A stretch of 64,000 nucleotides of DNA from Acidimicrobiales bacterium (GTDB taxonomy: Bacteria > Actinomycetota > Acidimicrobiia > Acidimicrobiales > CAIXPF01). Every line of letters starts with the position of its first letter. Position 1 is the stretch's first letter. The notes under the pieces are model-generated. The model saw only the letters and a program-made list of their open reading frames with translations. It made no database searches and was not told the DNA's origin. This document shows, one piece after another, positions 49,602-64,000 of the stretch. A program made the translations under genes and the position numbers. Location: positions 17,153-81,152 of the forward strand of contig JBBSLP010000017.1 in NCBI GenBank assembly GCA_038255145.1, given 5' to 3'.

Positions 49602-52439
49602 GTGATCGGTCGTCGCGGGTTGGTCGGCGGGCGCGTCCCCCGCCCGGCGGCGGCCCTGTGGCGCCGGCGGGTGCGGGCCGCCGCGGTCGACGACACCGCG
49701 GCCAGCTCGGCCCGGACCACCGTCGTGGTGGCCACCCGGCCCGGCGACGAGGTGCTGGGCTGCGGCGCCGTCCTGGCTCGCAAGCGGGCCTCGGGCACGA
49801 CCGTGGACCTGGTGGTGGTGACGGACGGACGCCACCTCAACCCCAGCCTGGTGCTCACCCCGTCGGCCCTGGCCGACCGGGTGGGTGTCGAGACCCTGGA
49901 GGCGGCGGCCATGTTGGGCATCGACGCCGACCACGTCCACCGCCTCGGGTTCGAAGAGGGGCGGCTGGGGGCCAGCGCCGCCGAGCTCGAAGCCGCACTG
50001 GCCTCCCTGCTGACCGAGCTCGACCCGGCCGAGGTGCTCGTCCCCTCGCCCCACGAGTTCGACGTCGACCGCCGCCACGTAGCCGCCGCGGTGGGGCGGG
50101 CGCTCGACCGGGGCGCCCGCGTCCGCCTCGTGCTGGGCTACGGGATGGACAGCTGGGTCGATCCCGTGCCTGCGCTGACGGCCAGGCCGCCGGTGCACCG
50201 CCTCGTGCGGGCCGACCGGTTCCTCCACCTGCAGCGGGCCGCCCTGGCCCGCCACCGGTCGCGCACGTCCAACCCCACCGGCGAGCTGGGCTGGCGCACG
50301 CCCGACCGGGCCACCCTGGCCCTGTTCGACACGGCCGAACAGGTCCTGGTGCCGCTGAGAGCGGCCGAGCTGGTGGCCGGCGACCCTGGTGGGCCCGGTG
50401 GGCCTGGCGACCCCGGTGGGTCCGATAGGCCCGGTGGGCCGTCGGCGGGTTCCGGCCCGGCCGCCCCCGCCCGCAACGGTCCCCCCATCGACGGCGTGGT
50501 CGATGCCTTCCACCTGCTCACCGATGACGGTGACGACGTGGCCGCCGGTGCCGTGATCGGCTCACGCGCTCCGTCGGGGGCCACCCGCCTGGGGGCCGAC
50601 GCCGAGGCGACCGTGGCCCTGACCGGCGGTCGCCTGCGCCTCGGCCACCTCGACACGCCGGGCTGGGGCCGCCAGGGCGTGGCCTACGGCCCCTTCGTGC
50701 GCCGCCCGGGCCTCACCTTCGCCGCCCGGGTCACCAACTCGCACCACAACGCCCACACCGACCCTGCGCCCCGGGGACCCCGCTCGGCCCTGGCCGCGCT
50801 GCGTCGGGACCGCGACCTCAGCGTCCTCCTGCGGCCGGCCATCGACGACAACCTGATCCTGGGCCTGCTCTCCCATCCCGTGCCCGACGGACCGCACGGA
50901 GCGGGCAACGCCTTCGTCGCGCACGCGGCGGGCCCCGTCAACGGTCAGCTGCGGGCCGCGGTGTCGGGCCGGGCCGCGCCCGTGGTCGACGGGGTGCAGG
51001 AGCTGACCCTCACCTACGTGGTCGTGCTCCGCGAACGGGGGGCCACGTACTACCTGTCGGGTCCCGAGGCCGGCGCCGGGGTGTCGCCATGGCCGTGGAT
51101 GCGTCCGGTGGCCGTCGACCTCGAGGACTCGACACCCCTGGTCTACGGCGGCATCCACCAGGCCGTGCACGACGAGTACGGCTACGAGACGGCCACCATC
51201 GTCGACAGGGTGCTGGTCGTGCCCCTCGACGCGTCCGCCGTGCCCACCCCCCGGCGCCTCGACCTGCTCGATGGTGCCGTCGGCGCCGGTCACGGCGACG
51301 GCGACGACATCGACCGGAGCGAAGCCCTCGTCGAGCTCGACGGCCCGGTAGGCCTGCTGCACGCCGTGGTGGGCACGGCCGCCGTGCTCGACGACACCAC
51401 CACGGTCGGTCTTCGCTGGCGCACCGACGCCGCCGGCCAGGACGGCTGGCGGCTCGTCGTGGGCCGCGACCGGGCCGAACTGGCCGTGGGCCACGGCGGG
51501 GTCTGGCAGGTCGTGGTCGAGGGCCGTTGCCACCTGCCCGCCGCCCACCAGGGAGCCCTGCAGGTCCTCGACGACGGGGCGAGCATCAGCGTGCACCTGG
51601 ACGGTGTGCGCCTGTTCGACGGTCCGGTGCTCGACCCTCGCCACGGCGCGTCGTGCCACGTCGGCGTGGTCGGGGGTTCGGGCGGGGCCAGGGTGCGGCG
51701 CCTCGAGGCCCATCCCCGCCAGGTGCCCGTGCCCGCAGCCCTGGGCCTGGGCGCGCCGTGGCAGGACCAGGGCACCGTCGTGGTGGCCCGGGACCACTTC
51801 GAGGGACCGGCCGGTGCGCTCGACGAGGTCGGACGACCGCACGGCCTGGGCTGGCAGCGGAGCCTGGGCACGGGCCGGTTGGAGCTCAGCGGGGCCGGGT
51901 CGCTGCGGGTGGGGGCTGACCGGGCCCGGCCCAACCCCGATCGCACCGCGTACACCGTGGCCTGGGCCCACCCCGACCTGGCCGACGTGGAGGTGGCCGT
52001 GCTGCCGCCGGGCACGGCCCGCAGCCAGGGCCACGGCAGCCGCGGCGGCCTGGTGCTGTGGCAGGACGAGGCCAACTACCTCGTCGTCAACGTGTGGCTC
52101 GACGACTCCCCCCACCACGATGGTTCGGCCGTCAGCTTCTTCTTCCACTCCGCCGGCCACGAGCGCATGGCCGACGCCCTGTGGACCAACGTCGGACGTC
52201 AGGTCACCTGGGGTCGCCGCATCACGTTGCGCCTGATCAGCGACGGTGACCACGTGACCGTCCTGCTCGATGGCGCGGCCGTGCTGCAGCGTCGGCTGAG
52301 CGACGTCCACCCCGGCGTGGCCCCCCTGCGCATCACCCGGGTCGGCATCGTCGCCAACCAGGAGTGGGGCGACGACACCGGTACCACCTTCTTCGACTTC
52401 ACCGCGCGCCACACCGCAACAGGAGCAGATCGACCGTGA
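49602..52439 (+). CDS. Degenerate PIG-L/LmbE deacetylase domain fused to a large beta-rich domain of unknown function
   Basis: VVATRPGDEVLGCG (canonical HPDDE), VVVTDG; Gly/Pro linker; C-terminal region rich in beta-strand-like, Trp/Gly segments. Confidence 0.65.
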   Translation: MIGRRGLVGGRVPRPAAALWRRRVRAAAVDDTAASSARTTVVVATRPGDEVLGCGAVLARKRASGTTVDLVVVTDGRHLNPSLVLTPSALADRVGVETLEAAAMLGIDADHVHRLGFEEGRLGASAAELEAALASLLTELDPAEVLVPSPHEFDVDRRHVAAAVGRALDRGARVRLVLGYGMDSWVDPVPALTARPPVHRLVRADRFLHLQRAALARHRSRTSNPTGELGWRTPDRATLALFDTAEQVLVPLRAAELVAGDPGGPGGPGDPGGSDRPGGPSAGSGPAAPARNGPPIDGVVDAFHLLTDDGDDVAAGAVIGSRAPSGATRLGADAEATVALTGGRLRLGHLDTPGWGRQGVAYGPFVRRPGLTFAARVTNSHHNAHTDPAPRGPRSALAALRRDRDLSVLLRPAIDDNLILGLLSHPVPDGPHGAGNAFVAHAAGPVNGQLRAAVSGRAAPVVDGVQELTLTYVVVLRERGATYYLSGPEAGAGVSPWPWMRPVAVDLEDSTPLVYGGIHQAVHDEYGYETATIVDRVLVVPLDASAVPTPRRLDLLDGAVGAGHGDGDDIDRSEALVELDGPVGLLHAVVGTAAVLDDTTTVGLRWRTDAAGQDGWRLVVGRDRAELAVGHGGVWQVVVEGRCHLPAAHQGALQVLDDGASISVHLDGVRLFDGPVLDPRHGASCHVGVVGGSGGARVRRLEAHPRQVPVPAALGLGAPWQDQGTVVVARDHFEGPAGALDEVGRPHGLGWQRSLGTGRLELSGAGSLRVGADRARPNPDRTAYTVAWAHPDLADVEVAVLPPGTARSQGHGSRGGLVLWQDEANYLVVNVWLDDSPHHDGSAVSFFFHSAGHERMADALWTNVGRQVTWGRRITLRLISDGDHVTVLLDGAAVLQRRLSDVHPGVAPLRITRVGIVANQEWGDDTGTTFFDFTARHTATGADRP

Positions 52440-53284
52440 CCACCCCTGCGACCCGCCACTCGACCGCTCCAGGCCGCCTCACCCCGTCGCTGGACCAGCT
52501 GATGCAGGTGGCCCAAGAGGGCGCCGCCGCCTACGCCTCGGCCCAGCCCTACCCCCACGCGGTGATCGACGGCCTGTTCTCCACCGAGGCCCTGAGGGCC
52601 GTGGCCACCGAGCTGCCCCCGCGCAGCGCTGCGGGGTGGACGACGTGGGACACCACCAACGAGTGGAAGCACGTCTTCGACCGGCCCGAGTTCTTCGGGC
52701 CCAACGCCCGGCGTCTGGCCGACGACCTCAACAGCTCCGAGTTCGTGCGCTTCCTCGAGCGGCTGACCGGCATCGACGCCCTGGTGCCCGACCCCCACCT
52801 GACGGCGGCGGGCTACTTCGACGTGCGCACGGGCGGGTTCCTCAACGTGCACGTGGACTTCGCCCGCAACCCCAAGCTGTCCCTGGTGCGCCGGGTCAAC
52901 GTGCTGGTGTACCTCAACGAGGGCTGGCAGGAGGACTGGGGCGGCCTGCTCGAGCTGCGGGGGCGCCTCGACGGCGGGGTGGTGCAGTCCATCCTGCCCG
53001 TGCTCAACCGCATGGTGGTGTTCTCGACCCCGGGTGCGGCCCACGGGCACCCCCGGCCGGTGGCCGCCCCCGAGGGTCGCAGTCGCCTGTGCTTCTCGGC
53101 CTACTACTTCACCAGCCCTGACCTGCCCGATTCCCCCTTCGAGCGCCACGGCGTGCTCTTCAGCGAGGCGGGTGACGAAGGCCTGTCCGGTACGGTGCGC
53201 CGCTTCGTCCCGCCCATCGCCATCGACGGGGCCAAGGCCGTCCGCCGGCGCTACCGGCGGTCCCGGGGCAGTCGGCTCAGGTGA
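52436..53284 (+). CDS. 2OG-Fe(II) oxygenase
   Basis: PYPHAVIDG, HVDF (HxD), RRVNVLVYLN, WGGLLEL, HGHP, R.CFSAYY; GTG overlaps the upstream stop. Confidence 0.85.
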   Translation: MTTPATRHSTAPGRLTPSLDQLMQVAQEGAAAYASAQPYPHAVIDGLFSTEALRAVATELPPRSAAGWTTWDTTNEWKHVFDRPEFFGPNARRLADDLNSSEFVRFLERLTGIDALVPDPHLTAAGYFDVRTGGFLNVHVDFARNPKLSLVRRVNVLVYLNEGWQEDWGGLLELRGRLDGGVVQSILPVLNRMVVFSTPGAAHGHPRPVAAPEGRSRLCFSAYYFTSPDLPDSPFERHGVLFSEAGDEGLSGTVRRFVPPIAIDGAKAVRRRYRRSRGSRLR

Positions 53285-53573
53285 GGACGATGCCGTCGTG
53301 GCCGCCGTGGCCGTTGGGCTCGAAGGCGTCGGCGTCGGTGTCGTCGAACCAGTCGCCGTTGGCGGTCACGTAGCGGAAGCGGGCCCTGGCCCCGGTGGGG
53401 AGCTCGACGACGCAGGACCGCCGCCCGTTGGCCCGCTTGCGCAGCGGGTGCCGGTTCGGCTGCCAGCCGTTGAAGTCGCCCACCACGCTGACCCGGTCGG
53501 CCGGCTCGCCGACGGGCAACGAGAAGGTGACGCGCACCTGCTGCTTCAGGGGCTTGGGGGTCTTGTTGATCAC
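53277..53573 (-). CDS. Isoamylase early-set (CBM48-like) domain protein
   Basis: VTFSLP, VSVVGDFNGW, FRYV...W..D..AD....N..GG. Confidence 0.82.
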   Translation of the reverse strand: MINKTPKPLKQQVRVTFSLPVGEPADRVSVVGDFNGWQPNRHPLRKRANGRRSCVVELPTGARARFRYVTANGDWFDDTDADAFEPNGHGGHDGIVLT

Positions 53574-53785
53574 CGGGGGGATCCCTTCGTTCGGCGGTCG
53601 TCTGCCTACGGGGCGCGATTGTCGCGTCGCCTAGCGGCGCGGACGCGGATCCCCGGCAACCCCTTGCGGGGCCGCGAACGTCGTGGGACCATGCGGCACG
53701 CGAGCCGAAGGCTCCTCGCCCGATGCAGCGTGAAGTGCTCCGCTGTGCTCCCGGACCGGTGTCCTGCGAGACCTTGAGGTGCGAG

Positions 53786-55264
<1,479 letters not shown>

Positions 55265-55804
55265 TCAACGCGGTCTGGGGGCCTCGCAGCCGGCGGCGAT
55301 GCGGTACTGGCCCCGGGCAGGGCGCTCGGCTCGGCCTTCGTCGACCTCGTGACCCAGGGCGTCGGCCAAGACCTTGACCGGGTGGGCGCCGGCCACCCCG
55401 TACCCGTGCAGGTGGAGCAGGGCGTGCAGGTCGGGCAGCGAGAGCGGTCCGCAACGCTCGAGCAGCTCCAGGCTGACGGCGCGGAGCGGTCGCCCCCACA
55501 GCCACGTGGTTCCTTCAGGCAGCGGGGGCAGGGGATCGACGAGTCGGCCAGGTCGGGGCCGGCGCCCCTGGGACCAGAGAGCGGCCGGCCACAGTTCGTC
55601 GCGCAGGGTCTCGAGCTGCTGGACGATTCGTTGGCGATCGCGAGCCCGGTCGGCCAGATCGATGTCCGCTTCTGCCAGTTCGTCGAGCAGCCGGGCGCGG
55701 TTGCCCAGGCGGGTGACCCGCACCAAGGGGTCGCGGGATCGGGCTGTCTGGCGGATGGCCACGATGGCCGGCGGGTCGGTCGGGAGAGGGATCGTCGCGT
55801 CCAT
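55265..55804 (-). CDS. Hypothetical protein with a C-terminal winged-helix-like segment
   Basis: Coiled-coil-like middle; GPLSLPDLHALL...GY.V....VK.LADAL..EV..GR..R..RG.Y resembles a wHTH; RBS agga upstream. Confidence 0.55.
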   Translation of the reverse strand: MDATIPLPTDPPAIVAIRQTARSRDPLVRVTRLGNRARLLDELAEADIDLADRARDRQRIVQQLETLRDELWPAALWSQGRRPRPGRLVDPLPPLPEGTTWLWGRPLRAVSLELLERCGPLSLPDLHALLHLHGYGVAGAHPVKVLADALGHEVDEGRAERPARGQYRIAAGCEAPRPR

Positions 55805-55867
55805 GGCCGTTCGTCCTGTGTCAGGTGCCGCAGAGCGTCGAGTAGGTCGACGCGACCGTTGCCCCCC

Positions 55868-55890
55868 ATCTTGCGCCGGGGGTGTGACAA
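55868..55890 (-). promoter_or_regulatory. RecA-NDp/PafBC-like promoter motif
   Basis: Minus strand TTGTCA-cac-N8-CAAGAT, with the spacing of the mycobacterial tTGTCRgtg-N8-TAnnnT motif. Confidence 0.4.
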
Positions 55891-55950
55891 CGAAGGGCGA
55901 GGCGTCGTGTGACCTGCGATTCCGCCAGCCAGGGGTTGTTCGTCGGGGCG

Positions 55951-55986
55951 CTGTTCAGGCGAATCGACATCGATTCGCCTGAACAG
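55951..55986. repeat. Perfect 17-bp inverted repeat with 2-nt spacer
   Basis: ctgttcaggcgaatcga-ca-tcgattcgcctgaacag. Confidence 0.9.
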
Positions 55987-56061
55987 GCGCAGACCCTGGG
56001 GGGTCCGGACGCAGGGGGGTCTGGACGATGCAGGGCGTCGGCAGGTTCGGAGGCGGCGCAT

Positions 56062-56105
56062 GTCAAGTTGAGTTGACGGCGAAGGCACTGTCAATGTACG
56101 TTGAC
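56062..56105. promoter_or_regulatory. Two GTCAA-N6-TTGAC palindromic operators upstream of an HTH gene
   Basis: gtcaa-gttgag-ttgac (56062-56077) and gtcaa-tgtacg-ttgac (56090-56105), the second ending 4 nt before the ATG. Confidence 0.65.
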
Positions 56106-56109
56106 GCTC

Positions 56110-56319
56110 ATGGATGTGGGCACCTTGACGACTGCGGTGGGGTCCGATGACCCGGCGGTGGGGCTACGGGCGGTGGTCGCCCTCCGCCGCCTCGCCGACC
56201 GCCTCGAAGCCCAACACGTGACCCGGGCCCGCACGCTGGGCTGGTCGTGGGAACAGGTCGGTGACGCCCTGGGCACCACCCGCCAAGCCGCCCACCAGAA
56301 GCACGGCAAGCGGCGATGA
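56110..56319 (+). CDS. Small helix-turn-helix protein (Clp-N-associated)
   Basis: DPAVGLRAV.ALRRL.DRLEA..V.RAR..GWSW.QVG.ALG.TRQA.HQKH. Confidence 0.8.
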   Translation: MDVGTLTTAVGSDDPAVGLRAVVALRRLADRLEAQHVTRARTLGWSWEQVGDALGTTRQAAHQKHGKRR

Positions 56320-56557
56320 AGGCCGTCCCGCGTCTGCGCCGCCGCCGTTTCGGCAACACCGTGCGCCAGGCCGTGCTGGCGGGCTCGGCCGAGGCCCGCT
56401 CCCGGGGTGATGCCCACCTGGGCACCGAGCACACCTGCTGCTGGCCGTGGCCACCGCCCCGGCGCCCGATCCCGGTGCCGACCTGCTGCGCCACCTGGGC
56501 GTCGACGCCGGACGGCTCCGGGACCGCCTGGGCCTGGGTCTGGCCGATGCCAGCTGA
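56316..56557 (+). pseudogene. Stand-alone Clp N-terminal domain protein with an apparent 2-nt frameshift
   Basis: EAR.RG...LGTEH, then an extra 'ac'; the shifted frame continues LLLAV...GADLLRHLGVD..RLRDRL to TGA at 56555-56557. ATG overlaps the HTH stop. Confidence 0.65.
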
Positions 56558-56559
56558 GC

Positions 56560-57057
56560 TCAGCCGTCGAGGAACGCGGCGATTGCCGGATCGAGGCGCA
56601 GCTCGGCCACCTCGGCCGGAGACGGCAGCTGGGGCCGGTCCCGGCGACGGTTGACCGTGCACAGGAAGCCCAGGGGCTCCTCCGCCCCGGCCCGGAACTG
56701 GTGCCAGGCCAGGGGAGGCACGCCCACCAGGTCGTGGAGGCCGACCTCGAAGACCTGGTCAGCCACCAGCGCGTGACCCGAGCCCCGCAGGATGACCACG
56801 TTGTGGACGTGCTCGTGACGCTCCAGGGTCGACCACCCACCGGGGGCGACCTCGAAGTAGCGCAGCTCGCACTCGAGCCCGGGGTCGTCGAAGAGCACCT
56901 GGCGGGTCACGTCGCGGAACGGCGCCGACCCCTCGTCCTTGTACTCGAGCAGTTCGACCTCGGCCCAGCGGTGGCCGCCCTCGTGGGCGCGGTGGGCTGA
57001 GGGCGGGACGGGCTCGGCCCGGTGGACGGCGGTGGCGGGCGTGGTGGAGGAGGCCAT
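56560..57057 (-). CDS. Cupin protein resembling methylthioxylulose-5-phosphate methylsulfurylase
   Basis: W..V.LLEYK.EGSAPFRDVTRQVLF, LRYFEVAPGGWSTLERHEHVH, WHQFRA, PLGFLC.V...RDRPQLP. Confidence 0.8.
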   Translation of the reverse strand: MASSTTPATAVHRAEPVPPSAHRAHEGGHRWAEVELLEYKDEGSAPFRDVTRQVLFDDPGLECELRYFEVAPGGWSTLERHEHVHNVVILRGSGHALVADQVFEVGLHDLVGVPPLAWHQFRAGAEEPLGFLCTVNRRRDRPQLPSPAEVAELRLDPAIAAFLDG

Positions 57058-57098
57058 GGCCAGCGGGGCTCCCGGTGCAGGGGGGACAGCGGAACGGT

Positions 57099-58217
57099 TC
57101 AGGTGGCGTGCTCGGCCACCAGACGGGTGACCTGTCGGGTGGCCTCGACCAGGCCGTCGCCGGTGGCCAACAGGGTGCCGCCCAGCACGAGCACGGTATC
57201 GGTGCCGTAGGTGTCGAGCAGTTCGGGCACCCGTTCGAGCGTCATGCCCCCCGCGGGGCCGGGCAGGGCCGGACGCAGGTGGGCCCAGGGTCGGCGGGCC
57301 TCCTCCGCCAGCCGCTCGCACTGCTCCCGGGTCCAGGCGAAGCGCCCGCCGTGGTTGGGGAAGATCACCGCATCGGTGCCGTAGAGGCGCATGAGGCGCC
57401 CGAACAGCAGGGGAGGATCGATGCGGGTGGCCCCGGAGAACGACGGGTGACCGAGCACGGCCATGCCCCGCAGGTCCTCGCGCACCAGGTCGGTGAAGGC
57501 GGGCAGGCCCACCAGCATGGGTGCCACCAGCACGACCTCGACACCGAGGTCGCGGGCCATGGCCACCTGACGCGACAGTTGGCGGGGGGTGCCCACCAGG
57601 CTGGGGGCGTAGCGCGTCGGCCGGCCGGTCTCCGCCGTGGCCCGGACCACCGCGGCCTGGCACGCGGCCACCCGCTCGGCGAACGGGGCCGCGTCCTGGT
57701 CGGCCAGGCCGTGGTCGTCCTTCACCAGGTCCACCCCGCCCAGGGCGAAGCGATGGCACAGGTCGGCCAGCTCGGCCGACGACGAGCCCTGGGGCTTGAG
57801 CACGGCGCAGGTCAGGGCCCGTTCCGGCGCCCCCACCAGGTGGCGTAGTCCGGCCACGCCCTGGGCCGGGCCGGGAAAGGATCCCAACAGCGCCGGCGGC
57901 AGCACCACGTCGACCAACTCCACGTCGTCCTGCATGGACACGTTGCCGAAGATCATGTTCAGCAGCTGGGTGGGGTCGGTGCCCACCGTCGAGGCGGCCA
58001 GCCCGATGCCCACGTGGAACCGCCCCGGGCCGGCAGGCTCGATGGAGCGGACCTGACCCACCACCTCGTCGAGGATGCGGCGGTCGGCGATGGCGCCCAC
58101 CGGCATCTCCACGCTCTGCTCGACGGCGATGGCCTGGGCCTTCGCCTCGATGGCGCTGGCCTCGACCGTGACCGCGTAGGTGACCTCGATCCGCTCCATG
58201 GCCCCAGCCTGGGTCAT
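57099..58217 (-). CDS. rlp: RuBisCO-like protein (form IV, KDDH type)
   Basis: A.AIAVEQSVEMP, QLLNMIFGNVS, PGP..G..GLR, LKPQG, GGVDLVKDDHGL, IFPNHGGRF, P.PAGGM; alternative start at 58199. Confidence 0.9.
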   Translation of the reverse strand: MTQAGAMERIEVTYAVTVEASAIEAKAQAIAVEQSVEMPVGAIADRRILDEVVGQVRSIEPAGPGRFHVGIGLAASTVGTDPTQLLNMIFGNVSMQDDVELVDVVLPPALLGSFPGPAQGVAGLRHLVGAPERALTCAVLKPQGSSSAELADLCHRFALGGVDLVKDDHGLADQDAAPFAERVAACQAAVVRATAETGRPTRYAPSLVGTPRQLSRQVAMARDLGVEVVLVAPMLVGLPAFTDLVREDLRGMAVLGHPSFSGATRIDPPLLFGRLMRLYGTDAVIFPNHGGRFAWTREQCERLAEEARRPWAHLRPALPGPAGGMTLERVPELLDTYGTDTVLVLGGTLLATGDGLVEATRQVTRLVAEHAT

Positions 58218-58236
58218 GGGCGGCGGCCAGGGCCAG

Positions 58237-59535
58237 CTACGTCCCCGTCACCATGCCGGCGCCGACGGTGGCGTTGCTGGCGTCGTCGACGAGCAGGAAG
58301 CTACCCGTGGCCCGGCACTCGGCGTAGCGGTCGACGACCACGGGCTGGGCCAGGCGCAGCCGCACGGTGGCCAGGTCGTTGAGCTCGACCTGGGCGGGGC
58401 CCGCTTCGCGCTGGAGGGTGGCCACGTCCAGTCGGTCGACCAGGCCGCTGACCAGGGCCCGGGTTGCTTTGGAGCCGTGCAGGACGGTCAGGCGGTCCCC
58501 GGGGCGCAGGGGGCGGTCGGCGAACCAGCACACCGTGGCCTCGAGCTCGGAGGTGACCGTGGCCGGGTCCGACGCCACCGACAGCACGTCGCCGCGTCCG
58601 ACGTCGATGTCCTCGGCCAGCACCACGCTGACCGCGGCCCCCGTCTCGACCACGTCGACCTCGTGTCCACCGACCTCGACGGCCACCACGGTCGTGGTGC
58701 GCCCGCCGGGCAGGACCACGACCTGGTCACCGGCGGCCAGGTGCCCTGCGGCCAGGGTGCCGGCGTAGCGACGCCGATCGTCGGCCTCGCCGACGCGGGG
58801 GCGGATGATCCACTGCACGACCACCCGGGCCCCCGTCGACGTGTCCGCCGGCGGCTCGACGGGCACGGTCTCGAGGTAGCCCAGCAGGGTGGGTCCGGCG
58901 TACCAGGCCAGCTGGGGTGAGGGCTCGACCACGTTGTCGCCCAGCAGGGCCGACAGGGGGATGGCGCTCACCTCGACGAAGGAGAAGGGGTCGGTGACCT
59001 GGGCCAGCTCGGCCACGATCTCGTCGTAGCGGTCCTCGGACCACTCGACGAGGTCCATCTTGTTGACGGCCACCACCAGGCGGGGCACGCCCAGGGTGGC
59101 GGCCACGATGGCGTGGCGTCGCGTCTGCTCGGTGACCCCCTGGCGGGCGTCGACCAGGAGCAGGACGACATCGACGGTGGAGACCCCGGTCACCATGTTG
59201 CGGGTGTACTGGTGGTGCCCGGGGGTGTCGGCGATGACGAACTCGCGCCGGGGGGTGGCGGCGTAGCGGTAGGCCACGTCGATGGTGATGCCCTGCTCCC
59301 GTTCGGCTCGCAGGCCGTCGGTGACCAGGGCCAGGTCGAAGGCGTGGTGGCCTCGACGGGCGCTGGTGGCGGCCACGGCCTCGACCTGGTCGTCGAAGAG
59401 GGCCTTGGCGTCGTGCAGCAACCGCCCGATGAGGGTGCTCTTGCCGTCGTCGACCGAGCCGGCGGTGGCGAAGCGCAACAGGCCGACCGTTGCTGGCGGC
59501 GACGCCTCGCTGGTCGTGCCGGTCGGGTACGCCAT
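58237..59535 (-). CDS. cysN: Sulfate adenylyltransferase subunit 1 (GTPase)
   Basis: TAGSVDDGKSTLIGRLL, EREQGITIDVAYRY, ADTPGH, NKMD, TGSFLLVD...N.TVGAG. Confidence 0.95.
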   Translation of the reverse strand: MAYPTGTTSEASPPATVGLLRFATAGSVDDGKSTLIGRLLHDAKALFDDQVEAVAATSARRGHHAFDLALVTDGLRAEREQGITIDVAYRYAATPRREFVIADTPGHHQYTRNMVTGVSTVDVVLLLVDARQGVTEQTRRHAIVAATLGVPRLVVAVNKMDLVEWSEDRYDEIVAELAQVTDPFSFVEVSAIPLSALLGDNVVEPSPQLAWYAGPTLLGYLETVPVEPPADTSTGARVVVQWIIRPRVGEADDRRRYAGTLAAGHLAAGDQVVVLPGGRTTTVVAVEVGGHEVDVVETGAAVSVVLAEDIDVGRGDVLSVASDPATVTSELEATVCWFADRPLRPGDRLTVLHGSKATRALVSGLVDRLDVATLQREAGPAQVELNDLATVRLRLAQPVVVDRYAECRATGSFLLVDDASNATVGAGMVTGT

Positions 59536-60473
59536 CAGAAGTACCCCTCGCGCTTGCGGTCTTCCATGGCCGCCTCCGAGAAGCGGTCGTCGGCCCGGGT
59601 CGCGCCCCGCTCGGTGACGGTGGCCGCGGCCACCTCGGCGATGATCTCGTCGAGGTCGGCGGCGGCCGAGCGCACCGCTCCCGTGCACGTCATGTCGCCC
59701 ACGGTCCGGTAGCGGACCTGCTGGGTGCTGGCCACCTCGTCGGGCCGGGGCGGGGTCCACGGGCCGGTGGCCACCAACATCCCGTCGCGCTCGACGACCT
59801 CACGCTGGTGGGTGAAGTAGATGGACGGGACCTCGAGGTCCTCCGCCGCGATGTAGCGCCAGATGTCGAGCTCGGTCCAGTCCGACAGGGGGAAGGCCCG
59901 CACGTGCTCGCCGGGGTTGATGCGCCCGTTGACCAGCTGCCAGGGCTCCGGCCGCTGGGCCCGGGGGTCCCACTGGCCGAAGGCGTCGCGGAACGAGAAC
60001 AGGCGCTCCTTGGCCCGGGCCTTGTCCTCGTCGCGGCGGGCGCCACCGATGCAGCACTGGAAGCCGTGGGCGGTGATGGCATCGAGCAGGGTGGTGGTCT
60101 GCAGGCGGTTCCGGGACCCGGTGAGGCCGGGGTCGGCCACCCGGCCGGCATCGATGGACGCCTGTACCGAGGCCACGACCATGCGCTCATCGAGCTCGTC
60201 GACCCGACGGTCGCGGAAGGCCAGCACCTCGGGGAAGTTGTGGCCGGTGTCGACGTGCATGACGGGGAAGGGGAAGGGCCCGGGGCGGAAGGCCCGCTCG
60301 GCCAGGCGCAGCAGGACGATGGAGTCCTTGCCCCCGCTGAACAGCAGGACGGGACGGTCGAACTGACCGGCGACCTCGCGCATGAGGTGGACGGCCTTGG
60401 CCTCGAGCTCGGCCAGGGGGGAGGTGCGGGGGCGGGCCCGGTCGAGGGCGCCGAGGGTGTCGAGCATGGTCAC
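59535..60473 (-). CDS. cysD: Sulfate adenylyltransferase subunit 2
   Basis: LFSGGKDS, HVDTG, GGARRDEDKARAKER, RAFPLSDWTE, MEDRKREGYF. Confidence 0.96.
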   Translation of the reverse strand: MTMLDTLGALDRARPRTSPLAELEAKAVHLMREVAGQFDRPVLLFSGGKDSIVLLRLAERAFRPGPFPFPVMHVDTGHNFPEVLAFRDRRVDELDERMVVASVQASIDAGRVADPGLTGSRNRLQTTTLLDAITAHGFQCCIGGARRDEDKARAKERLFSFRDAFGQWDPRAQRPEPWQLVNGRINPGEHVRAFPLSDWTELDIWRYIAAEDLEVPSIYFTHQREVVERDGMLVATGPWTPPRPDEVASTQQVRYRTVGDMTCTGAVRSAAADLDEIIAEVAAATVTERGATRADDRFSEAAMEDRKREGYF

Positions 60474-60561
60474 GGGGTGGGCTCCTCAGGGATGAAGGTC
60501 GCCGGGCGATCGAGGGGGGCGGTCACGTGGTGGAGGCGTCTGGGCATCGGGCACGACCGAC

Positions 60562-60594
60562 CGGTCGGGGCGGTCAGGGCGGTCGGGGCGGTCA
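60562..60594. repeat. 9-bp tandem repeat (cggtcrggg, about 3.6 copies)
   Basis: cggtcgggg cggtcaggg cggtcgggg cggtca in the cysH-cysD spacer. Confidence 0.75.
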
Positions 60595-61329
60595 CAGGTG
60601 CAGGCCGCACTCGGTCTTCTCCGAGCCCGACCAGCGGCCGGCCCGCGGGTCCTCGCCAGGGGCAACGGCCCGGGTGCAGGGCCAGCAACCCACCGAGGGG
60701 TAACCCCGGGCCACCAGGGGGTTGACGGGCACGTCGTGCTCGGCGATGTAGGCCGCGACCCGCTCGTCCGTCCACGTGGCGATGGGGTTGACCTTGACCA
60801 GGCCCCGCTTGTCCCGCTCGACGATGGCGGCCTCGCCCCGGGTGGGGGCATCGACCCGGCGCAACCCGGACAGCCACGCCGACCGCCCGGCCAGCTGCTG
60901 CTCGAGGGGGGCCACCTTGCGCTGGGCGCAGCAGGCGTCGGTGTCGGTCCGCCACAGGTCATGCGTGGGGGCCTCGGCCGACAGGACCACCAGGTTGGGG
61001 TGGTAGCGGCGGCGCACGGTCCGCACCGTGGCCAGGGTCTCGGGGAAGTGGTAGCCGGTGTCGAGGAAGACGATCTCGATGTCGGGGGCGACCCTGGTGG
61101 CCACGTCGATGAGCACGGCATCGGTCATGGACGCCGTCAGGCACAGCTGGCGGCCGAAGCGCTCGACGGCCCAGGCCACGATGGCCTCGGCCGGTTCGTG
61201 CTCGAGCCGGGCGGCGACCTCGGCCAGCTCGTCATCCGTGGGGGCCAGGGGGGAGAGGGGGGAGAGGGGGGAGAGGGGGGAGACAGGGCGGGGGGAGAGC
61301 GCGTCGGCGGGGCGCAGGTCGGTGGTCAC
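60592..61329 (-). CDS. cysH: APS/PAPS reductase (Fe-S, APS-reductase type)
   Basis: FLDTGYHFPET, CC..RKV.PL, SVGCWPCT, RAGRW, KTECGLH. Confidence 0.93.
   Translation of the reverse strand: MTTDLRPADALSPRPVSPLSPLSPLSPLAPTDDELAEVAARLEHEPAEAIVAWAVERFGRQLCLTASMTDAVLIDVATRVAPDIEIVFLDTGYHFPETLATVRTVRRRYHPNLVVLSAEAPTHDLWRTDTDACCAQRKVAPLEQQLAGRSAWLSGLRRVDAPTRGEAAIVERDKRGLVKVNPIATWTDERVAAYIAEHDVPVNPLVARGYPSVGCWPCTRAVAPGEDPRAGRWSGSEKTECGLHL
61247..61282. repeat. 9-bp tandem repeat aggggggag x4 within the cysH N-terminus
   Basis: Encodes (SPL)x4 on the minus strand. Confidence 0.85.
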
Positions 61330-61865
61330 GACGCCACCGCCTGCCACAGCACCTCGACGGCGTCGACCAGGGCCAGCTCGTGGGTGGCCACGACGACCTC
61401 GGGGGCGAGCGGGGCCTCGTAGGGATCGTCGACCCCGGTCAGGCCGGTGATCTCGCCGGCCCGCTGGCGGGCGTACAGGCCCTTGACGTCGCGCTCGGCG
61501 CACACCTCGACGGGGGTGGACACCCACACCTCGACGAAGCGGCCGTCGTGGCGGGCCCTGACCTCGTCACGGGCCTCCCGGAAGGGGGAGATGACGGCGC
61601 ACACGGCGGTGACGCCGTTGCGGGAGAGCAGGTCGGCCACCACCCCGATGCGGCGCACGTTCTCCATGCGGTCCTCCCGGCTGAAGCCGAGCTCACGGCC
61701 GAGCAGGGCCCGCAGTTCGTCACCGTCGAGCAGCTCGGCCGGGCGGCCCTCGGCCCGCAGTCGCTCGACCAACGCTCTGGCCAGGGTCGTCTTGCCGGCG
61801 GAGGGCAGCCCGGTGAGCCAGACCGTGCTCGCCGTGCGCTGCGGAGAGAGCGTGTTGCTTGGCAT
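61326..61865 (-). CDS. cysC: Adenylyl-sulfate kinase
   Basis: WLTGLPSAGKTT, LDGD.LR, LGFSREDR.EN.RRI, RDVKGLY, TGVDDPYE.P. Confidence 0.95.
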   Translation of the reverse strand: MPSNTLSPQRTASTVWLTGLPSAGKTTLARALVERLRAEGRPAELLDGDELRALLGRELGFSREDRMENVRRIGVVADLLSRNGVTAVCAVISPFREARDEVRARHDGRFVEVWVSTPVEVCAERDVKGLYARQRAGEITGLTGVDDPYEAPLAPEVVVATHELALVDAVEVLWQAVAS

Positions 61866-61895
61866 CGAGGGGCCAGGCTAGTAATTTCCGACTAC

Positions 61896-61914
61896 TCCCA
61901 TCAACTTTATCGGA
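61896..61914. promoter_or_regulatory. AT-rich imperfect palindrome in the divergent cysC/sir promoter, possibly an Rrf2/CymR-type operator
   Basis: tcccatcaactttatcgga matches its own reverse complement at 14 of 19 positions, within an unusually AT-rich patch. Confidence 0.5.
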
Positions 61915-62082
61915 TTCGTCAGGTATAGAACGGGATGCGCCGCCTCCGGACCCTCGGGACAGGCACGGAGGTGCCGGCTCCCGGCCCGGGCTCCACCCCT
62001 CCCCTGGCGTAGCCTCGGGACCGGTGGGTCCCTCGCCATCGTCGTCGCAGCACCACAGAGATCTTCCAGGACGGGAACGGGC

Positions 62083-63915
62083 ATGACCGACAACGGCACC
62101 ACCGACAGCACGGCAGCGGCCGAGGGACCAGTGCACGGAGAAGACGTCGTCGCGCGGTCCGCCGTGGAGGACATCAAGGACGCCAGCCGCTTCCTGCGGG
62201 GCACGCTCGGCGAGGAGATGGCCGATGCCAACGCCTTCTTCTCCAAGGACAGCACCAACCTGCTGAAGTTCCACGGGATCTACCAGCAGGACGACCGCGA
62301 CCAGCGCCGGGCCCGGGCCCAGAAGCGCCAGGAGCTGGCCTACAGCTGCATGGTGCGCACCTCGGTGCCCGGCGGCGTGCTCACCACCGAGCAGTACCTG
62401 GCTGCGGACGCCCTGGCCGACCGCATCGGCGACGGGGCCCTGCGCATCACCACCCGCCAGGGCCTGCAATACCACTTCGTGGCCAAGCACGACCTGCGTA
62501 CGCTCATCACCGAGCTGAACGACCACCTGGTGACCACCCGGGGGGCCTGCGGCGACGTGGTGCGCAACGTGTGCTCGTGCCCCGCCCCCCTCCACGACCG
62601 CGACCAGGCCGCGCTGCTGGCCGCCACCCAGGCCCTGGCCGACCGCTTCCGCCCCCAGACCGGGGCCTACTGGGAGCTGTTCGTCGAGGGGAAGAAGGCC
62701 GTCGAGGCCCTGGAGAAGATCGAGGCCCTGGCCGGAGACGCCGGTGAGACCGGTGAGACCGGTGAATCAGAGCCGATCTACGGAGCCACCTTCCTGCCCC
62801 GCAAGTTCAAGATCGGCTTGGCCTGGCCGGGGGACAACTGCATCGACGTCTACACCAACGACGTCGGCGTCGTGCCCCAGGCCGTCGACGGCGTGGCTGG
62901 CTACACCCTGCTGGTCGGCGGGGGGCTGGGCCTCAGCCACGACCGCGAGGACGACACCTACCCCCGCCTGGCCAGCCCCCTGTTCTGGGTCCCCGAGGCC
63001 CGCCTGGGCGAGGTCGTCGAAGCCGTCGTCACCGCCCAGCGGGACTTCGGTGACCGGTCGGATCGGGCCCGGGCCCGGCTGAAGTACACCATCGACGTGC
63101 GGGGCCTGGACTGGTTCCGTGACGAGGTGCGTCGCCGGGTCAGCGACCCCGACGACCTGACCGATCCGCCCCCCGTGCCCTCGTGGGCCGACTCCGACGA
63201 GCACCTGGGCTGGTTCGAGCAGCCCGACGGGCGCTGGTTCCTGGGGGTGCACGTGGACTCGGGCCGCATCCGCGACGAGGGCGACGCCAAGCTGCGCACC
63301 GCCCTGCGCGAGGCGGCCGCCTACACCGACGAGGTGCGCCTCACCGCCCGCCAGGACGTGTTGCTGTGCGGCGTGACCGAGACCGACCGGGCCGCGGTGG
63401 AGGACGCGTTGGTGCGCAACGGCGTGGTCCTGCACACCGAGCTGCGACCCCTGCACCGCCTGGCCGTCGCCTGTCCCGCCCTGCCCACCTGTGGCCAGGC
63501 CCTGGGCGAGGCCGAGCGGGCCATGCCCGGCCTGGTCGAGGGTCTGGGCAAGGCGCTCGAGGACCGGGGCCTGGGCCAGCTGCCCGTGCGGGTCAACGTC
63601 ACCGGCTGCCCGAACGGCTGCGCCCGGCCCTACTCGGCCGAGGTGGGCATCGTGGGACGCACCAAGACCACCTACGACCTCTACGTGGGTGGCGCCGTGG
63701 CTGGTGACCGGTTGGCCGAGCGGGTGGCCAAGGACGTCCACCTCGACGACCTGCCCGGCGCCCTGGGCCCGCTGTTCGACGCCTACAAGAGCGACGGTGC
63801 CGAGGGCGAGGCCTTCGGCGACTTCTGCGCCCGGGTGGGGACCGAGGTGCTGATCCCCCTGGTGCCCGCGTCGACCCGCAGGGTGCGCCGGGGGGCGGCC
63901 AAGAAGGACGCCTGA
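62083..63915 (+). CDS. sir: Assimilatory sulfite reductase hemoprotein (Sir/CysI)
   Basis: LKFHGIYQQDDRD, RITTRQ, ACGDVVRN, LPRKFK, siroheme/Fe-S ligands CPALPTC and TGCPNGCARP. Confidence 0.93.
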   Translation: MTDNGTTDSTAAAEGPVHGEDVVARSAVEDIKDASRFLRGTLGEEMADANAFFSKDSTNLLKFHGIYQQDDRDQRRARAQKRQELAYSCMVRTSVPGGVLTTEQYLAADALADRIGDGALRITTRQGLQYHFVAKHDLRTLITELNDHLVTTRGACGDVVRNVCSCPAPLHDRDQAALLAATQALADRFRPQTGAYWELFVEGKKAVEALEKIEALAGDAGETGETGESEPIYGATFLPRKFKIGLAWPGDNCIDVYTNDVGVVPQAVDGVAGYTLLVGGGLGLSHDREDDTYPRLASPLFWVPEARLGEVVEAVVTAQRDFGDRSDRARARLKYTIDVRGLDWFRDEVRRRVSDPDDLTDPPPVPSWADSDEHLGWFEQPDGRWFLGVHVDSGRIRDEGDAKLRTALREAAAYTDEVRLTARQDVLLCGVTETDRAAVEDALVRNGVVLHTELRPLHRLAVACPALPTCGQALGEAERAMPGLVEGLGKALEDRGLGQLPVRVNVTGCPNGCARPYSAEVGIVGRTKTTYDLYVGGAVAGDRLAERVAKDVHLDDLPGALGPLFDAYKSDGAEGEAFGDFCARVGTEVLIPLVPASTRRVRRGAAKKDA

Positions 63916-63916
63916 G

Positions 63917-64000
63917 TTGGGTGCGCCCGATGCGCCCACCGATGGCGCCCCGCTCGTGCCCGTGGCCCTGGTGGGTGCGGGCCCGGGCGACCCCGACCTG
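63917..64000 (+). CDS. cobA: Uroporphyrinogen-III C-methyltransferase (CobA/CysG-type), 3' partial
   Basis: VALVGAGPGDPDL at the window end, directly after sir; TTG start inferred. Confidence 0.75.
   Translation, partial: MGAPDAPTDGAPLVPVALVGAGPGDPDL

What the first reader, a model, noticed from the sequence alone, without database searches (positions are those of the whole stretch)
56560..61865. RuBisCO-like protein and cupin (MTA-isoprenoid shunt pair) embedded in a sulfate-assimilation operon
Seen: cysC-cysH-cysD-cysN-rlp-cupin on one strand, with only about 20 nt from cysN to rlp and 41 nt from rlp to the cupin. The RLP has KDDH rather than KDDE, and the cupin has STLERHEHVH/WHQF. Established: in Rhodospirillum rubrum a KDDH RLP isomerises methylthioribulose-1-P to methylthioxylulose-5-P, and a neighbouring cupin releases methanethiol and DXP. 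Inference: an actinobacterial sulfur-starvation unit joining de novo sulfate reduction with methylthio salvage and MEP-pathway feeding, or an RLP with a new sulfur substrate. I do not recall this arrangement being described. MTA phosphorylase, MtnA and the sulfhydrylase are not in the window.
Basis: partly seen in the sequence, partly recalled or inferred. Interest (0 to 1): 0.85.

Follow-up and report, generated by a model that had tools for sequence, protein, structure and literature searches.

The report
Methylthio-salvage gene pair joined to sulfate operon
A known two-gene module that recovers sulfur and an isoprenoid precursor from the waste product methylthioadenosine sits, in one soil actinobacterial genus only, at the tail of the sulfate-assimilation operon, which is a tidy new gene arrangement rather than a new kind of enzyme.

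Summary
On the minus strand lie cysC, cysH, cysD, cysN, a RuBisCO-like protein (RLP) and a cupin, with sulfite reductase divergent upstream. The gaps are short: cysN to rlp 19 nt, or 37 nt from the likelier Met7 start, and rlp to cupin 41 nt.

The RLP matches PDB 3qfw over its full length (E 2e-106), against 1.7e-39 for MtnW enolase. The cupin matches R. rubrum Rru_A2000 (E 3e-55), the published MTXu-5P methylsulfurylase. Catalytic motifs are invariant across relatives. MtnP, MtnA, two MetY, Dxr and Dxs lie elsewhere in the genome. No ARD or MtnB was found. The pair is therefore an orthologue of the MTA-isoprenoid shunt, not a new enzyme.

What is new is the location. RLP-cupin is a conserved module (58 of 59 metagenome loci), yet cysN lies beside it in 0 of 63 metagenome loci and 0 of 24 genome loci. 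The junction recurs only in near relatives. Co-transcription and sulfur regulation are inferred, because no RNA data exist. Interest is modest.

The parts
61326..61865 (-). cysC, adenylyl-sulfate kinase; first gene of the unit
   Evidence: Pfam APS_kinase 196.4 bits. TIGR00455 205 > 138.7. Its stop overlaps the cysH start as GTGA.
60592..61329 (-). cysH, (P)APS reductase. It carries CC, CWPC and ECGLH cysteine motifs, which I recall as the iron-sulfur APS-reductase type.
   Evidence: Pfam PAPS_reduct 142 bits. NF002537 252.5 > 154. Sequence printed. A 118-nt gap to cysD follows.
59535..60473 (-). cysD, sulfate adenylyltransferase small subunit
   Evidence: TIGR02039 415.5 > 396.6. Its stop overlaps the cysN ATG as TGATG.
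58237..59535 (-). cysN, sulfate adenylyltransferase GTPase subunit
   Evidence: TIGR02034 497.8 > 336.1. Pfam GTP_EFTU 144.5 bits.
57099..58217 (-). RuBisCO-like protein of the DeepYkr type, a predicted 5-methylthioribulose-1-P 1,3-isomerase. The likely start is Met7 at 58199 (366 aa).
   Evidence: PDB 3qfw E 2.4e-106 over the full length, against MtnW 1.7e-39. KDDH, H257, R292 and GG motifs are invariant in 47 of 47 relatives. Some homologues are named S-methyl-5-thioribulose 1-phosphate isomerase by their sources. It is the only RuBisCO_large hit in the genome.
56560..57057 (-). Cupin of the Rru_A2000 type, a predicted 1-methylthioxylulose-5-P methylsulfurylase
   Evidence: PDB 3jzv (Rru_A2000) E 3.3e-55, residues 23-165. 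Rru_A2000 is the MTXu-5P sulfurylase in PMC4958253. E79, H81, H83, H85 and H119 are invariant in 78 of 78 relatives.
61866..61925 (.). AT-rich block directly upstream of cysC, conserved between the two species of the genus; candidate promoter/operator of the unit
   Evidence: Alignment of the G000 and G001 intergenic regions. Its 16-nt and 15-nt cores occur once each in the 5.65-Mb genome. Function not tested.
62083..63915 (+). Assimilatory sulfite reductase hemoprotein, divergent from cysC
   Evidence: Pfam NIR_SIR and NIR_SIR_ferr. NF010029 636 > 457.

Best explanation
The RLP and the cupin are orthologues of the two enzymes that define the MTA-isoprenoid shunt.

Proposed pathway:
1. MtnP and MtnA, encoded elsewhere in the genome, convert 5'-methylthioadenosine to 5-methylthioribulose-1-P.
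2. The RLP isomerises this to 1-methylthioxylulose-5-P.
3. The cupin, using a low-molecular-weight thiol, removes the methylthio group. This releases methanethiol and leaves 1-deoxyxylulose-5-P.
4. Dxr takes the 1-deoxyxylulose-5-P into the MEP pathway.
5. MetY condenses methanethiol with O-acetylhomoserine to give methionine.

The thiol here is probably mycothiol rather than glutathione.

In this one actinobacterial genus the two-gene module has been moved to the 3' end of the cysC-cysH-cysD-cysN operon. It most likely rides on that operon's transcript. Sulfur recovery from MTA would then be switched on together with de novo sulfate reduction when sulfur is short.

Shown here: gene identities, pathway completeness and the uniqueness of the arrangement. 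Inferred: the enzyme activities (by orthology), co-transcription, sulfur control and the identity of the thiol.
For: Identity of the pair:
- The RLP gives 359 bits over its full length to 3qfw, against 139 bits to YkrW/MtnW and 95 bits or less to Photo-type RLPs.
- The cupin gives 190 bits to Rru_A2000.
- Published passages equate Rru_A1998/A2000 and RPA2169/2170 with MTRu-1P isomerase and MTXu-5P methylsulfurylase.
- Motif residues are invariant in 47 of 47 RLPs and 78 of 78 cupins.
- The cupin lies directly downstream of the RLP in 56 of 59 metagenome loci that have room, plus 2 more where the alignments overlap. The same holds in 19 of 24 genome loci; 3 of the other 5 are cut by a contig end.

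Pathway in the genome:
- MTAP 296.6 > 274.85 and MtnA 385 > 279.
- Two MetY over cut-off, Dxr and Dxs.
- No ARD.
- None of 3 class-II aldolases reaches the MtnB cut-off.

Operon:
- Same strand, with gaps of 19-37 nt and 41 nt.
- No terminator-like site between genes and no Rfam element.
- GC3 of rlp and cupin (0.91-0.96) matches that of the cys genes.

Conservation of the junction:
- X2 and X4 contigs bridge cysN-rlp.
- In the same-genus genome G001, one contig ends inside cysN. Another starts with the RLP's last 13 codons, followed by the cupin.

Thiol:
- GshB not found.
- MshD over cut-off.
- MshA- and MshC-like proteins are full length but just under cut-off.
Against: - No enzyme assay and no RNA data exist for this organism.
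- In R. rubrum and R. palustris the shunt genes are reported as negligibly regulated by sulfur source, that is housekeeping (PMC5893883 passages). Sulfur control is therefore not a family trait.
- The RLP is below the cut-off of every NCBIfam model and the cupin matches none. No curated model vouches for the assignment.
- I could not put Rru_A1998 itself in a tree. That 3qfw is R. palustris RLP1 is recalled, not shown by any search.
- Dxs is present, so the DXP output is not needed for isoprenoids.
- One class-II aldolase/adducin-family protein (NF004855) could be a DHAP-shunt aldolase. The RLP route may therefore not be the only fate of MTRu-1P.
- A promoter inside the 3' end of cysN cannot be excluded.
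- The scan found no sigma-70-type promoter anywhere in 55200-62300. It is therefore uninformative on this point.
Confidence: 0.62

Rival explanations
1. The pair is a working MTA-isoprenoid shunt, but its place behind cysN is a neutral by-product of a local rearrangement. It is expressed constitutively, from its own promoter or by read-through, as a housekeeping MTA-detoxifying route, as in R. rubrum. It has no sulfur-starvation logic.
For: - The literature describes the shunt as housekeeping and not regulated by sulfate.
- The cys locus of this genus is rearranged relative to its family. Relatives have cysH-cysD-cysN-sir or cysD-cysNC. Here sir is inverted upstream and cysC has been added.
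- Elsewhere the module stands alone next to unrelated genes: glgA-like GT5, Zn-ADH and a GNAT-acyl-CoA synthetase.
- It sits near mtnP in only 1 of 104 loci and near mtnA in 0 of 104. Its neighbours are therefore usually not informative.
Against: - The gaps of 19-37 nt and 41 nt leave little room for a separate promoter, and there is no terminator-like site after cysN.
- The junction is kept in relatives that differ by about 12% in DNA (X4). It is probably also kept in the second species of the genus, whose RLP is only 71% identical.
Confidence: 0.27
2. The RLP and cupin of this genus have been recruited to a different sulfur-containing sugar phosphate linked to APS/PAPS metabolism.
For: - The unusual context is unique to this genus.
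- The nearest RLP outside the small clade is only about 60% identical.
- RLPs are known for functional diversity, for example the OiaX model.
Against: [quoted passage not shown]
- The clade sits inside the family's RLPs, and an AU test of one family clade gives p 0.49.
- MtnP and MtnA would otherwise have no recognisable downstream enzyme, since there is no ARD and no MtnB.
- The cupin partner is 74% identical across the two species and about 60% identical to Rru_A2000.
Confidence: 0.07
3. The adjacency is an assembly or binning artefact of a metagenome-assembled genome.
For: The genome is in 122 contigs and the best holder is a soil metagenome run.
Against: - An independent Logan contig of 4955 nt spans the cupin, the rlp and 1 kb of cysN with no differences.
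- Contigs of two other studies bridge the same junction.
- GC3 is uniform across the junction.
Confidence: 0.02

Closest known systems
Rhodospirillum rubrum MTA-isoprenoid shunt: RLP Rru_A1998 (DeepYkr clade, MTRu-1P 1,3-isomerase) and cupin Rru_A2000 (MTXu-5P methylsulfurylase)
   Same: - Same two protein families, in the same order (RLP then cupin) and closely linked.
- The cupin is a full-length match to Rru_A2000 (E 3e-55).
- KDDH and the cupin His/Glu ligands are conserved.
- MtnP, MtnA and MetY are present as in R. rubrum.
   Different: - The host is an actinobacterium, not an alphaproteobacterium.
- The module is fused to the 3' end of a cysCHDN operon rather than standing alone.
- The published genes are described as barely regulated by sulfur source.
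- Glutathione, the published co-substrate, is probably absent here: no GshB, and MshD is present.
- In R. rubrum the two genes are separated by one locus tag (A1999). That detail comes from the locus numbering only.
Rhodopseudomonas palustris RLP1 (RPA2169) / cupin (RPA2170); PDB 3qfw is, from recall, this RLP1
   Same: - The RLP is a full-length match to 3qfw at roughly 55% identity (read by eye from the alignment, not computed) and E 2e-106.
- The genes are adjacent.
- Genetics in R. palustris show that both genes contribute to methanethiol release from MTA.
   Different: - R. palustris also has a DHAP-methanethiol shunt, and its pair is not next to cys genes.
- Here no second route was recognised, although one class-II aldolase remains unassigned.
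YkrW/MtnW RLP (2,3-diketo-5-methylthiopentyl-1-P enolase) of the canonical methionine salvage pathway
   Same: It shares the RuBisCO large-subunit fold and acts in MTA salvage. NF007095 is the best NCBIfam model for the RLP (180.8 bits).
   Different: - The score is far below the cut-off (180.8 against 409).
- MtnW has KDDE where this protein has KDDH (alignment).
- The partners MtnB and ARD were not found.
- The protein is about 40 residues shorter.
Actinobacterial sulfate-assimilation operons in the same family (cysH-cysD-cysN-sir; cysD-cysNC)
   Same: The cys genes are the same, with CysD and CysN 50-65% identical.
   Different: None of the four other operons that could be read past cysN carries rlp-cupin (in the fifth, the same-genus G001, the contig ends inside cysN). 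Here sir is divergent and cysC leads the operon.

Membership tests
DeepYkr-clade RuBisCO-like protein (MTRu-1P 1,3-isomerase) | RuBisCO large-subunit catalytic domain | tested here: met
   PF00016 66.3 bits > 30.1, covering residues 121-247 only. The alignment to RLP structure 3qfw is full length.
DeepYkr-clade RuBisCO-like protein (MTRu-1P 1,3-isomerase) | Closer to the solved DeepYkr-type RLP than to YkrW, Photo or bona fide RuBisCO | tested here: met
   3qfw 359 bits; 2oek (MtnW) 139; 1tel/1ykw 95; form I-III 110 or less. That 3qfw is R. palustris RLP1 is recalled, not given by a call.
DeepYkr-clade RuBisCO-like protein (MTRu-1P 1,3-isomerase) | KDDH in place of the KDDE metal-ligand motif, together with retained Lys/His/Gly-Gly phosphate and catalytic positions | tested here: met
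K166-D167-D168-H169, H257, R292 and G323-G324 are invariant in 47 of 47 aligned relatives. 3qfw also reads KDDH, while MtnW reads KDDE.
DeepYkr-clade RuBisCO-like protein (MTRu-1P 1,3-isomerase) | Falls in one clade with R. rubrum Rru_A1998 in a phylogeny with other RLP clades | not tested
   No tool gave me the Rru_A1998 sequence or labelled YkrW/Photo sequences. My trees hold only relatives of this protein. An alphaproteobacterial group that includes a Roseospira protein lies next to the actinobacterial clades.
DeepYkr-clade RuBisCO-like protein (MTRu-1P 1,3-isomerase) | Isomerises MTRu-1P to MTXu-5P/MTRu-5P | not testable with these tools
   Needs an enzyme assay.
Rru_A2000-type cupin (MTXu-5P methylsulfurylase) | Single cupin barrel with full-length similarity to Rru_A2000 | tested here: met
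   Cupin_2 33.7 > 27.2. 3jzv E 3.3e-55, residues 23-165 aligned to 13-155.
Rru_A2000-type cupin (MTXu-5P methylsulfurylase) | Conserved His/Glu cluster (ERHxHxH ... WHQF) | tested here: met
   E79, H81, H83, H85 and H119 in 78 of 78 cupins encoded beside RLPs. That these are the metal ligands is inferred from the general cupin motif (recall).
Rru_A2000-type cupin (MTXu-5P methylsulfurylase) | Encoded directly downstream of a DeepYkr RLP | tested here: met
   41-nt gap here. The arrangement is the same in 56 (+2) of 59 metagenome loci.
MTA-isoprenoid shunt (whole pathway) | MtnP, MtnA, O-acetylhomoserine sulfhydrylase and Dxr present in the same genome | tested here: met
   TIGR01694 296.6 > 274.85; TIGR00512 385.3 > 279; TIGR01326 625.5 and 608.6 > 495.1; TIGR00243 412.7 > 315.7.
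MTA-isoprenoid shunt (whole pathway) | Glutathione as thiol co-substrate (as published for R. rubrum) | tested here: not met
   No GshB match, in a genome that is 98% complete. MshD is over cut-off, and MshA- and MshC-like proteins are near cut-off. A review already expects the thiol to differ between organisms (PMC6302742 passage).
Canonical methionine salvage pathway (MtnB/C/D or MtnW/X) | MTRu-1P dehydratase MtnB and acireductone dioxygenase | tested here: not met
   PF03079: 0 matches. The best MtnB score is 54.9 against a cut-off of 137. MtnC was not searched.
Single cysCHDN-rlp-cupin transcription unit | Same strand, short gaps, no terminator between genes | tested here: met
   The scan is a simple consensus search and actinobacterial terminators may escape it.
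Single cysCHDN-rlp-cupin transcription unit | One RNA across the cysN-rlp junction | not testable with these tools
   No RNA run holds the stretch.

The most novel reading that the evidence does not exclude
In this genus the RLP-cupin pair is not a housekeeping MTA route. It is a sulfur-starvation-induced, mycothiol-dependent arm of the cys regulon. In the boldest version, its substrate range has shifted to another thio-sugar phosphate tied to APS/PAPS metabolism. That would make it the first sulfur-regulated, non-glutathione version of the shunt, or a new RLP reaction.
Probability: 0.1. Interest if true: 0.65.

Novelty: new member of a known kind. Interest (0 to 1): 0.33.

Why it matters
The MTA-isoprenoid shunt has been studied in two purple alphaproteobacteria, where it appears constitutive.

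This locus offers three things:
- It is a natural case in which the same two enzymes are physically wired to sulfate assimilation, in a phylum where they are rare: 3 of 400 sampled genomes outside the family carry any match, at 34-43% identity.
- It gives a simple test of whether MTA sulfur salvage can be placed under sulfur control.
- It gives a test of whether the cupin works with mycothiol.

It does not reveal a new enzyme family or a new pathway.

Tried and rejected
Assembly artefact. Rejected by the contigs laid.

Recent foreign insertion. GC3 of rlp and cupin equals that of their neighbours. The AU test does not reject one clade for all RLPs of the family (p 0.49). I named the group after seeing the quick tree, and it includes three database proteins (P0006, P0009, P0012) that nest among the family's genomes.

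A regulon defined by the conserved block upstream of cysC. Its two cores occur only once each in the genome at 0 mismatches. With up to 3 mismatches I saw nothing convincing. No regulon could be inferred.

Riboswitch or other RNA element. No Rfam match at E <= 0.1 in 55000-64000.

Promoter and terminator scan. It found 0 promoter-like sites, and 1 terminator-like site inside cysD, which is at chance level.

Expression. No RNA holder is listed for the stretch, so nothing can be said about transcripts.

Wider synteny:
- The genome-contig scan with the single protein found only 13 loci, none actinobacterial.
- The metagenome scan returned 80 loci at 48-58% identity. Whether those sit behind cysN is unknown.

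Rows dropped or limited:
- For the trees I used 29 of the roughly 117 loci, choosing long contigs and all family loci with a single HSP of 300 aa or more, plus 17 named or nearest database proteins.
- For the cupin conservation count only hits covering residues 45-135 were kept: 78 sequences including the window's.

ORFs downstream of the cupin. Translations of 56091-56558 (minus strand) and 55349-55912 (plus strand) look like wrong-frame high-GC sequence. Only 55804..55265 (minus strand) reads like a real protein. It has no Pfam hit.

Papers:
- Erb 2012 (PMC3475740), Warlick 2012 (PMC3490199) and Imker 2008 (by PubMed id) are not held. What I say about them comes from passages in PMC5893883, PMC4958253 and PMC6302742, or from recall.
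- Supplementary figure S6 of PMC4958253, which shows gene neighbourhoods of RLP/cupin homologues, could not be seen and may bear on the novelty claim.
- The claim that the arrangement is not in print rests, two full-text searches that returned 6 and 5 papers. I read passages of PMC10581226, PMC10663253, PMC6302742, PMC5893883 and PMC4958253.

Full report
**What is there**

The window has about 73% G+C. Seven WhiB-family genes mark the genome as actinobacterial; among 14 control genomes that family rings only in Corynebacterium. The genome is 5.65 Mb in 122 contigs and 98% complete.

Six genes lie on the minus strand between 61865 and 56560. Pfam and NCBIfam identify them as follows:
- cysC, APS kinase
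- cysH
- cysD
- cysN
- a RuBisCO-like protein (RLP)
- a small cupin

An assimilatory sulfite reductase lies divergent on the plus strand at 62083-63915.

The junctions are tight:
- cysC/cysH overlap as GTGA.
- cysH to cysD is 118 nt.
- cysD/cysN overlap as TGATG.
- cysN to rlp is 19 nt to the first ATG.
- rlp to cupin is 41 nt.

The database's own gene call for this protein is 366 aa, and the nearest homologues start MERIE. The true RLP start is therefore probably Met7 at 58199, which makes the cysN-rlp gap 37 nt.

GC3 periodicity is strong and uniform through all six genes. No terminator-like hairpin lies between them and no Rfam family matches.

**Is the junction real?**

A 4955-nt contig from an independent assembly of run X1 covers 56000-59292 without a single difference. 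X1 may be the source sample. Short contigs from two other studies bridge the cysN-rlp junction. X2 covers 58188-58327 with 3 differences. X4 covers 57947-58278 with 28 differences and 12 gaps.

In the only other species of the genus held (G001), the sir / cysC-cysH-cysD-cysN layout is the same, but the contig ends inside cysN. Another G001 contig begins with the last 13 codons of an RLP, followed by a cupin 74% identical to this one, and then gltD. The database protein P0005 is 71% identical to the window's RLP, and its C-terminus reads the same as that contig start by eye. The RLP therefore very probably lies in G001's assembly gap.

**What the two proteins are**

The RLP aligns over its whole length with PDB 3qfw (E 2.4e-106, 359 bits). 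The next best matches are MtnW enolases at 139 bits, Photo-type RLPs at 95 bits or less, and true RuBisCOs below about 110 bits. 3qfw also reads KDDH, whereas MtnW reads KDDE.

The cupin aligns over residues 23-165 with PDB 3jzv, 'uncharacterized protein Rru_A2000' (E 3.3e-55).

Passages in PMC4958253 state that Rru_A1998 is the DeepYkr-class RLP that isomerises MTRu-1P to MTXu-5P. They also state that Rru_A2000 is the cupin-type MTXu-5P sulfurylase that yields methanethiol and DXP. Passages in PMC5893883 show the same for R. palustris RPA2169/RPA2170 by knock-out and metabolite tracing.

Some close homologues of the RLP carry the source name 'S-methyl-5-thioribulose 1-phosphate isomerase', for example P0020 at 58% identity.

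Conservation across relatives is complete at the key positions:
- In 47 aligned RLPs, K166-D167-D168-H169, H257, R292 and G323-G324 are invariant.
- In 78 cupins, E79, H81, H83, H85 and H119 are invariant.

No NCBIfam model reaches its cut-off for the RLP, and none matches the cupin. The assignment therefore rests on pairwise homology to the characterised proteins.

**Is the pathway complete?**

Present elsewhere in the genome:
- MTA phosphorylase (TIGR01694 296.6 > 274.85)
- MTR-1-P isomerase MtnA (TIGR00512 385 > 279)
- two O-acetylhomoserine sulfhydrylases over cut-off
- Dxr
- Dxs

The RLP is the only RuBisCO-family gene in the genome. No acireductone dioxygenase was found. None of three class-II aldolase-family proteins approaches the MtnB cut-off. 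One of these is an unassigned 'class II aldolase/adducin family protein', so a DHAP-type shunt cannot be excluded.

The RLP-cupin pair is thus the only recognisable sink for MTRu-1P.

The published cupin reaction uses glutathione. Here no glutathione synthetase was found. MshD passes its cut-off, and full-length MshA- and MshC-like proteins score just below theirs. Mycothiol is therefore the likely thiol. This is an inference, in line with the remark in PMC6302742 that the thiol must differ between organisms.

**How unusual is the arrangement?**

The RLP-cupin pair is a very stable two-gene module:
- Of 80 metagenome loci at 48-58% identity, 59 have at least 500 nt downstream of the RLP.
- In 56 of these the cupin follows directly. 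In 2 more it follows with overlapping alignments.
- The cupin follows in 19 of 24 genome loci. Of the other five, three are cut by a contig end and two are outlying RLPs.

No locus other than the window's has cys genes beside the module:
- 0 of 63 metagenome loci with at least 600 nt upstream have them.
- The one weak cysN-like hit, 4 kb away on the other strand, is a GTPase match at E 1.5e-7.
- 0 of 24 genome loci have them within about 9 kb.
- mtnP is nearby in 1 of 104 loci. mtnA and a MetY-grade match are nearby in 0 of 104.

In the same family the module is flanked by a glgA-like glycosyltransferase and by a Zn-dependent dehydrogenase or a GNAT-acyl-CoA synthetase. The cys operons of those relatives read cysH-cysD-cysN-sir or cysD-cysNC, without rlp.

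Taxonomic distribution:
- The RLP occurs in 11 of 14 other genomes of the family.
- It occurs in 0 of 46 genomes representing 46 other families of the order.
- It occurs in 3 of 400 other genomes sampled across the phylum, at only 34-43% identity.

In a careful ML tree the window's RLP groups with P0003-P0005 (100/99). It is weakly sister to the main genus of the family (70/85). An AU test does not reject one clade for all the family's RLPs (p 0.49).

The simplest history is a single acquisition by the family's ancestor. A later rearrangement of the cys locus in this genus then inverted sir upstream, put cysC in the lead and placed rlp-cupin behind cysN.

**Mechanistic reading**

Steps inferred by orthology:
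1. MTA is converted by MtnP to MTR-1-P.
2. MtnA converts MTR-1-P to MTRu-1-P.
3. The RLP converts MTRu-1-P to MTXu-5-P.
4. The cupin, with a thiol, converts MTXu-5-P to DXP and a methylthio adduct that releases methanethiol.
5. MetY uses the methanethiol to make methionine.

Steps inferred from anatomy: rlp and cupin are transcribed from the cysC promoter region. MTA sulfur would then be reclaimed when the cell turns on sulfate reduction. MetY can use both sulfide and methanethiol; this last point is from PMC6302742 passages and general knowledge.

Directly upstream of cysC lies an AT-rich block of about 55 nt. It is conserved between the two species while the rest of the spacer has diverged, and its cores are unique in the genome. 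It is a candidate operator/promoter, but nothing links it to sulfur yet.

The sulfur-starvation reading faces one objection. In R. rubrum and R. palustris the shunt genes are reported as hardly regulated by sulfur source. A neutral placement is therefore a serious rival, to which I give about 0.27.

**Comparison with the known, and novelty**

The proteins are members of known, characterised families. The pathway is the known MTA-isoprenoid shunt.

Three things are new:
- the host phylum, where the module is rare;
- the attachment to a sulfate-assimilation operon, not found in the 87 loci with readable upstream flank (63 metagenome, 24 genome) nor in the papers searched;
- the probable non-glutathione thiol.

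Supplementary neighbourhood figures of the Tabita and Gerlt papers, and the Erb 2012, Warlick 2012 and Imker 2008 texts, could not be read.

I file this as a new member of a known kind with a new genomic context. Interest is about 0.33. A specialist would find it neat and testable but not surprising.

**Tools**

No earlier findings were used.

Noticed in passing
window 61866-61925: An AT-rich block of about 55 nt directly upstream of cysC, in a 73% G+C genome. It contains a TAGT-N8-ACTA palindrome. It is about 85% conserved (by eye) with the same-genus genome while the rest of the spacer has diverged. Its cores are unique in the genome.
   Followed up: partly
window 60592-61329 (cysH): CysH carries CC, CWPC and C-terminal ECGLH motifs, which I recall as the iron-sulfur APS-reductase type. 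Even so, an APS kinase (cysC) leads the operon. PAPS may therefore serve sulfation rather than assimilation.
   Followed up: no
window 55255-56090: About 835 nt present here but absent at the same place in the same-genus genome G001, where gltD is 67 nt from the next conserved block. The stretch holds a 179-aa ORF (55804..55265, minus strand) with no Pfam hit. Its DNA has 69-73% matches on two other G001 contigs. It may be a mobile or multi-copy gene.
   Followed up: partly
window 56090-56310: A 221-nt block downstream of the cupin is 84% identical to G001. It shows weak coding periodicity, has no Rfam match and no convincing ORF.
   Followed up: no
window 60474-60591: The 118-nt cysH-cysD spacer contains a direct repeat of about 15 nt, copied twice 18 nt apart, just after the cysH stop.
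   Followed up: no
L029, L031, L032, L037 (same-family genomes): In relatives, the RLP-cupin pair is repeatedly followed by a glgA-like starch/glycogen synthase (GT5). It is preceded, divergently, by a Zn-dehydrogenase or by a GNAT-CoA-ligase-type protein of about 950 aa.
   Followed up: partly
G000 contig C25: 53377-55200 and 62401-63120: dxs and the MTA phosphorylase gene lie about 7 kb apart on the same contig and on the same strand.
   Followed up: no
window 52364-55264: A 2OG-Fe(II) oxygenase (52364-53284, plus strand) and the glutamate synthase small subunit gltD (53723-55264, plus strand) lie convergent to the cys-rlp-cupin unit.
   Followed up: no
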